In this document: positions 19,521 to 21,158 of the stretch, piece by piece
How the letters are laid out: every line of letters starts with the position of its first letter
Position numbering within the stretch: the stretch's first letter is position 1
Assembly (NCBI GenBank): GCA_951406725.2
Contig: OX597830.1
Coordinates: 51,646,001-51,710,000 of the forward strand
Reading direction: 5' to 3'
Origin: Octopus vulgaris
Lineage: Eukaryota
Length of the DNA: 64,000 nucleotides
Program-made: the position numbers and the translations under genes
Notes under the pieces: model-generated
What the model saw: only the letters and a program-made list of their open reading frames with translations
Told to the model about the DNA's origin: nothing
Database searches by the model: none

Positions 19521-19690
19521 GTCTATATATATATATATATATAAAAAGCAATAAAGATTCAAGTTAATTTAAATGAATTTACTTGAATATGGTACCTAAC
19601 TTAGATGCACCAAAAAGAACTATACTGATTTAACAATACAGTAATGTGGGGTGATTATAAGCGAGAATGAAGCAACAAGAATGGATAGGT

Positions 19691-19781
19691 TTTTAGTACG
19701 ATCGTTTCATACAAGGACAGGTTTTATTAAAAATTGCAAAAATTACAGTATATAAACGTGTCCCGTACTCATCAGCTAAAA
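19691..19781 (-). ncRNA. Type I hammerhead ribozyme (minus-strand copy)
   Basis: Reverse complement of 20434-20524. Confidence 0.8.
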
Positions 19782-20433
19782 TACATGTGAGTTCTCTAGA
19801 CATCCTAGTGGTTGAGGCTATACTCATGAAGTAATGTAGATAATTAAGTAACATAAACAGATTTCAAAAGTTCATTAAAGTTCTTTAAAGATGATGTACA
19901 GTCCCATCACAGAATTTCAAAAAAGTCCTAATAGCATCACAGAATTTCAAAAAAGTCTTAATAGCATCACAGAGAAGCTGACCCGATCCATAGTGCACAT
20001 ATGAATTTCCAGAGATATTATGAGGGGTTACATACTCACAGAAAGCAAATTTATCCATTGTCAATTACAACGAGGTGGGTTTCAATTCCTGCTTATTAGC
20101 ATTACAGAGAGGGTGAATTAATCCTTTGTATAGATGCACAATTTCCAATGGTGTAGGTGTAAATTTCCAAGGAATTTCATATTCACCGGCGATAAATTTA
20201 TCAATGGTTGAACACAATGAGGTAGGTATCAAATCTTGCTATATGAATAGGTATTTGCCACATTAATCAAATTACTGCTATTTACAAGAGGCTGTGGCTA
20301 TTTAACTTTTAAGGCTGAAGAGCTTACTAGAGCTATATAATGAACTTTTGAAATCTGTTTATGTTACTTAATTATCTACATTACTTCATGAGTATAGCCT
20401 CAACCACTAGGATGTCTAGAGAACTCACATGTA

Positions 20434-20524
20434 TTTTAGCTGATGAGTACGGGACACGTTTATATACTGTAATTTTTGCAATTTTTAATAAAACCTGTCC
20501 TTGTATGAAACGATCGTACTAAAA
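20434..20524 (+). ncRNA. Type I hammerhead ribozyme
   Basis: TTTTAG-CTGATGA-GTACGGGACA..TGTCCTTGTAT-GAAAC-GATC-GTA-CTAAAA: 6-bp stem I, intact core, palindromic ACGATCGT stem III. Confidence 0.82.
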
Positions 20525-21158
20525 ACCTATCCATTCTTGTTGCTTCATTCTCGTATATATATATATATATATATAAGACAATTTACTTAGAAGTTTGAAA
20601 ATGCACCTGAATTAGAAAAATGGGCAGTTGTTTTTAAATAGATTTATTGACATTTTTTTTTTGTTTATCAATGGTACAAATATATATGAAACAGGGGCAT
20701 TTTAACAGAGTTTAAAATTATAAATTAGAAATCGGACAACATGCTTGAACCATCAAATGATCAAATGAACACATGAAATTCACTGAGTTTCACAAGGGTA
20801 TATAATATTAAAGTATGTATTCGGCGAAGAATATAAGAAATGTACTTTATTGAAAGTTCCATCATATTGGGCTTTTATTGAATATGTGGACAAGAGAGGG
20901 AAGGAAAACAGAAGAGAGCTAAAGAAAAAGTATTTTTTCTTTAATTTCTGTCGATGTGCGTGTAGTTCTTGTTTTCTTTTTTCCCCTTCGCATACAGGTC
21001 CCTTCGAAAAACACCGTGAAAAGCGAAGTGTCCAGTACGTGAAGAATACAGGTTTTTCAAATTCAGGTGTATTTTCAAACCCCAAAACAAATTCCTCTAT
21101 ATTTCTTCTTGTGTGGGAATACACTCATTCTTTCTGTATATATTTATATTTACATATA

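What the first reader, a model, noticed from the sequence alone, without database searches (positions are those of the whole stretch)
19543..20553. 1-kb element with a perfect 216-bp inverted repeat and divergently oriented hammerheads
Arms 19662-19877 and 20338-20553 appear identical, suggesting a recent insertion. They place one intact hammerhead on each strand, so read-through from either direction meets a ribozyme but can also fold into a 216-bp duplex that would mask it. The interior is non-coding with a 30-bp tandem duplication (~19906-19970). A second truncated core start (GGCTGAAGAGC, ~20312-20322) lies next to the inversion junction.
Basis: partly seen in the sequence, partly recalled or inferred. 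Interest (0 to 1): 0.72.

Follow-up and report, generated by a model that had tools for sequence, protein, structure and literature searches.

The report
Truncated Penelope insertion with mirrored hammerheads
This is the cut-short, mirror-image end of a common Penelope-type jumping gene in an octopus genome; each arm carries a hammerhead motif predicted to cut only in pairs and to be masked here by pairing between the arms, so the layout is an ordinary insertion product, although the family's strict habit of giving every two-armed copy one short and one long end likely reflects how it is copied.

Summary
The 216-bp inverted repeat and both hammerhead motifs are real. They are two 5'-truncated 3' ends of one young Penelope-like retrotransposon family (807 exact hammerhead 25-mers in the genome), joined back to back between (TA)n tracts. 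Full-length copies encode a ~953-aa RT plus C-terminal GIY-YIG protein with the Hydra-clade motifs. The interior is inherited 3' UTR; the 30-bp duplication is a subfamily marker. The 'second core' is not a ribozyme: it lies on the antisense strand and is broken in most copies. Inverted arms, tail and hammerheads are published PLE features, and this scan noted such insertions before on other octopus DNA. The motif has a 2-bp stem III with a palindromic loop kept by covariation, so it likely needs a partner; on either strand the antisense arm is transcribed first and would mask it. Worth keeping: 35 of 35 two-armed copies, and 19 of 20 in a hammerhead-seeded sample, pair one short end with one 119-nt-tailed end and share haplotype. 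This suggests one RNA copied from two fixed sites. Cleavage, expression and polymorphism were not shown.

The parts
19524..19542 (.). (TA)n target tract, left flank
   Evidence: all family ends examined abut (TA)n or a TA-rich run
19543..20339 (-). Tailed arm: last 797 nt of the element's 3' UTR/pLTR, sense on the - strand
   Evidence: colinear with positions 3880-4647 of the 4648-nt unit of full-length copy L040; 97-98% to copies that continue into the ORF
19543..19661 (-). 119-nt tail, present on one arm only; in tandem copies it runs on into the 5' leader, 55 nt before the ORF's ATG
   Evidence: L040; 15 exact tail-to-leader junctions in the genome
19557..19666 (-). Two predicted hairpins spanning the tail (19666-19595 with inner stem 19642-19619; 19588-19557); the two fixed ends lie at their 5' base and 14 nt 3' of them
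   Evidence: z -4.21, 0 of 200 shuffles; one compensatory pair (G-C 12, U-A 5 of 19) in the inner stem, the second hairpin nearly invariant
19662..19877 (-). Left arm of the 216-bp inverted repeat
19688..19783 (-). Type I hammerhead motif, - strand, predicted cut after 19697
   Evidence: mirror of the + strand motif
19905..19973 (.). 30-bp tandem duplication, an inherited subfamily marker in the 3' UTR
   Evidence: among hits covering query 1-797, 6 are 794-797 bp (with it) and 5 are 767-768 bp (without)
20315..20321 (+). CTGAAGA, chance core-like heptamer on the antisense strand; not a ribozyme
20338..20339 (.). Inversion junction with a 2-nt (TA) overlap between the two arms
20338..20553 (+). 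Short-ended inverted arm (unit positions 4313-4528), ends 35 nt after the predicted cut
20432..20527 (+). Type I hammerhead motif: 6-bp stem I, CUGAUGA, 10-bp stem II closed by G.U, GAAA, 2-bp stem III with palindromic ACGAUCGU, GUA cut after 20518
   Evidence: core intact in 109 of 109 distinct copies; pair counts
20554..20575 (.). (TA)n target tract, right flank

Best explanation
The element is a protein-less, 5'-truncated insertion of a young Penelope-like retrotransposon with Hydra-clade motifs, made of two 3' ends joined back to back in a (TA)n tract, and it likely arose when the element's enzyme nicked both target strands and copied its RNA from two fixed internal start sites. Shown: family membership, ORF and motifs of full-length copies, the two fixed ends (35 and 154 nt after the hammerhead cut site), one of each end per two-armed insertion, and the shared haplotype of the arms. 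Inferred: each nick primed one cDNA, one from the tail end and one from the short end, probably on the same RNA molecule with the downstream cDNA displacing the upstream one. Both stalled early and were joined at a 2-nt overlap. The hammerhead belongs to the parent's pLTR and would cut as a dimer through its palindromic loop III. At this locus a read-through RNA of either strand carries one sense motif behind its own 216-nt antisense copy, so it is predicted to be silent and merely a source of double-stranded RNA if transcribed.
For: Family: 119 matches from 40 of 1640 candidates scored; 807 exact hammerhead 25-mers, control 0. ORF: RWK 37, DKT 124, YRDD 355, CxCx5C 814, VIY..YIG 833-850, CxxC 911, CxH near the end of a 953-aa frame, as listed for Hydra in PMC8557442 section 11. 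Architecture: 35 of 35 outward pairs are short+tail (sample partly seeded on short ends). From pattern lists on C1 and part of C2: 27 short+tail pairs, 0 short+short, 0 tail+tail among 37 short and 59 tail ends. Hammerhead-seeded sample: 19 of 20 short+tail, 1 tail plus an end about 10 nt shorter. Arms differ 0.19% within insertions against 1.5% all-versus-all; the C/T site at 20515 agrees in 35 of 35 (24 TT, 11 CC). Neither arm is simply a copy of the other: the short arm reaches further 5' in 13, the tailed arm in 12, equal in 8 of 33. Loop III stays self-complementary: G-C 2, G.U 5, A-U 12 of 19. In vitro, a Poseidon PLE nicks and extends both strands from two internal sites that bound the tail (PMC11167929).
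Against: No Pfam hit for three ORF copies and no PDB hit for the profile, so RT/EN identity rests on motifs and a by-eye match to Hydra-1_Obim; no tree was built. The unit (4.65 kb) and tail (119 nt) are longer than published (<3 kb; 30-40 nt). Shared haplotype also fits two RNAs from one active source locus, or gene conversion between arms. Copies with three or four pLTRs (L040, L079/L080) need more than one pass, so a one-molecule model needs a multimeric or circular RNA. G10.1 pairs with U, not the usual C. No cleavage, expression or empty-site data.
Confidence: 0.9

Rival explanations
1. The two arms come from two RNA molecules held as an asymmetric dimer (possibly through the hammerhead palindrome), or from an antisense or self-primed fold-back template as proposed for rotifer Penelopes. 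It is still a PLE insertion; only the route differs.
For: The palindrome is conserved with covariation. Both arms can cover kilobases of the same sequence (L038). 8 of 33 junctions are near-symmetric fold-backs. PMC3846280 discusses self-priming on an antisense template (passages).
Against: No mixed-subfamily insertion at site 20515 among 35, where free mixing would agree about 60% of the time per insertion. Free choice of start site would give short+short and tail+tail pairs, and none were seen. Pure fold-back cannot give a short arm longer than the tailed arm (13 of 33).
Confidence: 0.35
2. The locus is a host-used, bidirectional ribozyme switch or dsRNA source that controls a passing transcript.
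For: Both cores are intact and the duplex is perfect.
Against: The same layout occurs in dozens of young copies examined, with cores intact in 109 of 109, so intactness reflects youth. The only gene mapped in the window starts about 36 kb downstream.
Confidence: 0.04
3. It is a MITE or other DNA transposon with long terminal inverted repeats, or a non-LTR retrozyme.
For: About 1 kb, non-coding, inverted repeats, TA flanks, hammerhead.
Against: The repeat is not terminal on the left (119-nt tail). Arm lengths vary from about 45 nt to over 4 kb between copies, and the sequence is colinear with the 3' end of an RT-encoding element. No other copy seen shares this junction, and there are no tandem units.
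Confidence: 0.02
4. The inverted arm is a long-read fold-back or assembly artefact.
For: The arms are 100% identical, and no public contig spanned the junction.
Against: The arms are asymmetric and end at biologically fixed sites shared with hundreds of loci. The two flanks are different unique sequences. 7 of 35 family pairs show arm differences.
Confidence: 0.03

Closest known systems
Hydra clade of C-terminal EN+ Penelope-like elements, incl. Hydra-1_Obim of Octopus bimaculoides (Craig et al. 2021, PMC8557442; section 11, passages and supplement rows seen)
   Same: RWK, DKT, CxCX5C linker, no CCHH, CxxC and CxH beside E and N, (TA)n targets, canonical hammerhead; protein visibly similar to Hydra-1_Obim (by eye only).
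   Different: A different family: 4.65-kb unit against 2507 bp, Asn-rich linker (29% N over residues 470-800), about 1.7-kb 3' UTR, different hammerhead sequence.
Complex tandem/inverted PLE insertions with an optional tail (PMC8557442 Fig. 2 legend; PMC3846280 passages)
   Same: Inverted 5'-truncated copy at the 5' side, tail at one end only, partial tandems; Asn-rich inserts are also reported in rotifer PLEs.
   Different: Tail 119 nt rather than 30-40 nt; here the one-end rule is counted and near absolute.
PLE hammerheads that work as dimers (Cervera and de la Pena 2014, PMC4209133, parts 1-2 of 4 read; review PMC6765202 passages)
   Same: Type I, long stem II, 1-2 bp stem III with palindromic loop; opposite-strand pairs 100-700 bp apart were already noted in Schistosoma.
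   Different: G10.1.U11.1 instead of G-C, and a 39-nt loop II region with an inner hairpin; activity untested here.
Poseidon PAc of Anolis carolinensis (Frangieh et al. 2024, PMC11167929, parts 1-2 of 4 read)
   Same: Two internal RT start sites bounding the tail, both strands nicked and extended, hammerhead not at the insertion ends.
   Different: PAc starts inside the ORF, at sites not homologous to the target. Here both sites lie upstream of the ATG and next to TA-rich motifs, and the paper's read parts report no strict one-site-per-strand pairing.

Membership tests
EN+ Penelope-like element | Single ORF with RT and GIY-YIG endonuclease in full-length copies | tested here: met
   949-957-aa frames in 5 copies; motifs; no Pfam or PDB hit
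EN+ Penelope-like element | pLTRs from partial tandems, direct or inverted | tested here: met
   L040 and L089-L100
EN+ Penelope-like element | [quoted passage not shown] | tested here: met
   35 of 35 and 20 of 20 carry one tailed arm; its length of 119 nt exceeds the usual 30-40 nt
EN+ Penelope-like element | Hammerhead motif in the pLTR | tested here: met
Hydra clade | C-terminal EN, RWK motif, DKG changed to DKT | tested here: met
   RWK 37, DKT 124, EN at 833-953
Hydra clade | CxCX5C linker; no CCHH; CxxC and CxH flanking the conserved E and N | tested here: met
   one Cys only between VIY and YIG; CxxC at 911; CxH near the end
Hydra clade | Insertion into (TA)n | tested here: met
Hydra clade | Placement in the Hydra clade on an RT tree | not tested
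   Reference Hydra proteins were not available as alignable records; by-eye comparison only
Hydra clade | Typical length under 3 kb (described as 'generally', not diagnostic) | tested here: not met
   unit 4648 nt, lengthened by an Asn-rich linker and a long 3' UTR
Type I hammerhead ribozyme | Conserved core and stems I-III | tested here: met
   stem III is 2 bp with pair probability about 0 in the monomer; G10.1.U11.1
Type I hammerhead ribozyme | Self-cleavage | not testable with these tools
   needs an in vitro assay
Naiad clade | N-terminal EN and no canonical hammerhead | tested here: not met
   EN is C-terminal and a hammerhead is present
Non-LTR retrozyme | Tandem non-coding units, each with a hammerhead | tested here: not met
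   single truncated 3' end of an ORF-bearing element
MITE | Terminal inverted repeats and uniform copy structure | tested here: not met
   repeat not terminal; inner junctions differ from copy to copy

The most novel reading that the evidence does not exclude
Inverted Penelope insertions are made by twin priming on one RNA: an enzyme dimer nicks both strands of (TA)n, starts one cDNA at the 5' base and one just 3' of a two-hairpin tail, and the downstream copy displaces the upstream one. Every two-armed insertion therefore gets exactly one short and one tailed end of the same haplotype. This octopus family, with hundreds of young copies, several intact ORFs and two start sites 119 nt apart, would be a ready test system.
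Probability: 0.4. Interest if true: 0.5.

Novelty: new member of a known kind. Interest (0 to 1): 0.22.

Why it matters
The locus itself is ordinary transposon debris. What has some value is the family statistic. How PLEs form inverted pLTRs and tails is named as an open question in PMC8557442. The counted rule (one short end, one tailed end, same haplotype, either arm the longer) narrows the possible routes and can be tested with an intact ORF in the assay of PMC11167929. If transcribed, hundreds of such perfect hairpins could also feed RNA editing or small-RNA pathways in octopus; that was not shown here.

Tried and rejected
Rfam: no match at gathering score in the window and no hammerhead at E<=10 over 19500-20600. 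Pfam on three ORF copies and a PDB profile search: nothing. Naiad was my first guess; rejected because the EN is C-terminal. A suspected host exon near 21000: not part of the mucin-like NIDO gene, whose coding exons start at about 56575, and no splice joint was listed there. Sequencing-run search with the right flank: no RNA holder listed. DNA contigs of 4 runs: no joint skipping the element and no piece spanning it; records are cut at the TA tracts, so polymorphism is undecided. Four guessed-RNA runs: contigs lie on the family sequence but carry other copies' variants, and contigs cannot show ends, strand or editing. Hammerhead cleavage as the maker of the ends: neither fixed end is at the cut site, and no inner breakpoint of 33 insertions sits on it (nearest 4 nt off, L055; sample biased towards long arms). 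The sequence-deduplicated count of the 30-bp duplication (12 with, 106 without) was not used, because identical copies merge. Literature: five searches listed no paper on this family or on twin priming in PLEs; subscription journals and the bioRxiv supplements were not visible. Preprint 10.64898/2026.07.22.740005: part 1 of 5 read. Lunse et al. 2017 was seen only as a citation.

Full report
Observation. The arms 19662-19877 and 20338-20553 are an exact 216-bp inverted repeat. The 1011-bp element sits between (TA)n tracts at 19524-19542 and 20554-20575. Each arm holds a type I hammerhead motif: stem I of 6 bp, CUGAUGA at 20440, a 10-bp stem II closed by G.U, GAAA at 20507, a 2-bp stem III around the palindrome ACGAUCGU, and GUA with a predicted cut after 20518. 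Rfam does not detect it. The 30-bp tandem is at 19905-19973. The 'second core' at 20315 is a chance heptamer: it is antisense to the element, has the CTGAAGAGC form in only 7 of 44 sequence-deduplicated family contexts, and such a heptamer appears in 16% of shuffles.

What it is. The genome is an octopus's: a window exon is 96% identical to an Octopus sinensis mucin-like protein. A search of it gave 119 matches from 40 of 1640 candidates scored, and the hammerhead 25-mer occurs exactly 807 times, control 0. Longer copies continue past the window's junction into an ORF. Copy L040 shows the whole unit: hammerhead, 119-nt tail, leader, ORF, about 1.7-kb 3' UTR, hammerhead, tail, (TA)n, with an inverted arm at its 5' side. 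Five of 12 loci fetched around tail-to-leader junctions have intact 949-957-aa frames. The protein has RWK, DKT, YRDD, a CxCx5C linker, a C-terminal VIY..YIG domain without CCHH, and CxxC and CxH beside the conserved E and N. These are the features that Craig et al. list for the Hydra clade (PMC8557442 section 11); their supplement holds an octopus member, Hydra-1_Obim, of another family. 33 relatives were found, most about 700 aa long and 31-44% identical. Pfam and PDB gave nothing, and no tree was built. The window copy is unit positions 3880-4647 on the - strand plus 4313-4528 on the + strand, overlapping by TA. Its closest copy is 99.86% identical. The 30-bp duplication is inherited: 6 long hits carry it and 5 lack it.

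How it likely arose. The family has two fixed 3' ends, 35 and 154 nt after the hammerhead cut site; neither is at the cut. Exact patterns give 161 forward short ends and 285 forward tailed ends; reverse counts (164, 706) include overlapping duplicates; controls were 0. Among 114 distinct hammerhead-region copies in 100 loci, all 35 outward-facing terminal pairs are one short plus one tailed end; that sample was partly seeded on short ends. The listed coordinates on C1 and the first 112 Mb of C2 give 27 mixed pairs and no like pairs among 37 short and 59 tailed ends. Twenty pairs picked by hammerhead position alone gave 19 short+tail and one tail plus a slightly shorter end; some of these also appear in the list. 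Arms differ 0.19% within an insertion against 1.5% all-versus-all, and a C/T site agrees in 35 of 35. Either arm can reach further 5' (13, 12, equal 8, of 33), so neither is just a copy of the other. The tail folds into two hairpins (z -4.21) with one compensatory pair across 19 hand-picked copies from two subfamilies (related sequences, so weak). Frangieh et al. showed for a Poseidon PLE that both strands are nicked and extended from two internal sites bounding the tail. My inference is two nicks, two fixed starts, most simply on one RNA, then early stalling and joining. Two RNAs from one source locus, arm homogenisation, or a circular or multimeric template (needed for copies with 3-4 pLTRs) are not excluded.

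The ribozyme. The core is intact in 109 of 109 copies, which mostly reflects youth. Stem III is not formed in the predicted monomer ensemble, while the loop palindrome pairs with itself (-10 kcal/mol) and stays self-complementary as G-C, G.U or A-U. Other families met in the loci also keep palindromes there. This matches the dimer-dependent PLE hammerheads of PMC4209133, which already mentions opposite-strand pairs 100-700 bp apart. In the window copy a transcript of either strand holds one sense motif behind its 216-nt complement (duplex -375.6 kcal/mol), so silence is predicted. No host transcript over the site was shown: the one gene mapped starts 36 kb away.

Comparison and verdict. Inverted 5'-truncated copies, a one-ended tail, (TA)n targets and hammerheads are all published for PLEs. 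Earlier notes of this scan reached the same reading on other octopus DNA (unchecked AI notes, used as leads for Hydra-1_Obim and the tail hairpin). None matched this sequence or place. This family differs in its longer unit and tail. It is a new member of a known kind. Interest 0.22; the one-RNA twin-priming reading has probability about 0.4 and would deserve about 0.5.

Noticed in passing
window 34700-36520: A second (TA)n-flanked inverted element of another family: about 533-bp units in tandem on the - strand plus an inverted copy, with three identical hammerhead motifs (34927-, 35460-, 36222+; loop ACAATTGT). It looks like a non-autonomous retrozyme-type passenger with the same PLE layout.
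   Followed up: partly
window 47279 (+): Another hammerhead-like motif of a third family.
   Followed up: no
family ends, L001-L100: Most ends have a G just before the TA tract. At the short end it is not in the template (CGCG in 32 of 52 sequence-deduplicated ends); at the tail end it is (30 of 47). Both start sites lie next to TA-rich motifs. This may mean a primer ending in C or a nick beside TATAC.
   Followed up: partly
G000:C14:58.636 Mb (L009): The only other insertion among those examined with the window's rare hammerhead haplotype; a near-perfect 600-bp fold-back.
   Followed up: partly
unit position 3917 (L011, L028, L048, L054) and 4238-4247 (L033, L034, L036, L095, L096): Recurring inner breakpoints, possibly RT pause sites.
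   Followed up: no
window 20023-20093 and 20170-20240: Two 71-nt 3' UTR segments 70% alike, 147 bp apart; function not examined.
   Followed up: no
window 56575-63390 (+): First five coding exons of a mucin-like NIDO/EGF gene.
   Followed up: partly
window 64-613, 18606-19032, 23856-24228: Arrays of a 182-184-bp dispersed tandem repeat.
   Followed up: no
window 12836-15339 and 39318-42113: Broken LINE-type ORFs with endonuclease and RT motifs; a decayed GIY-YIG-like fragment near 12412-12789.
   Followed up: no
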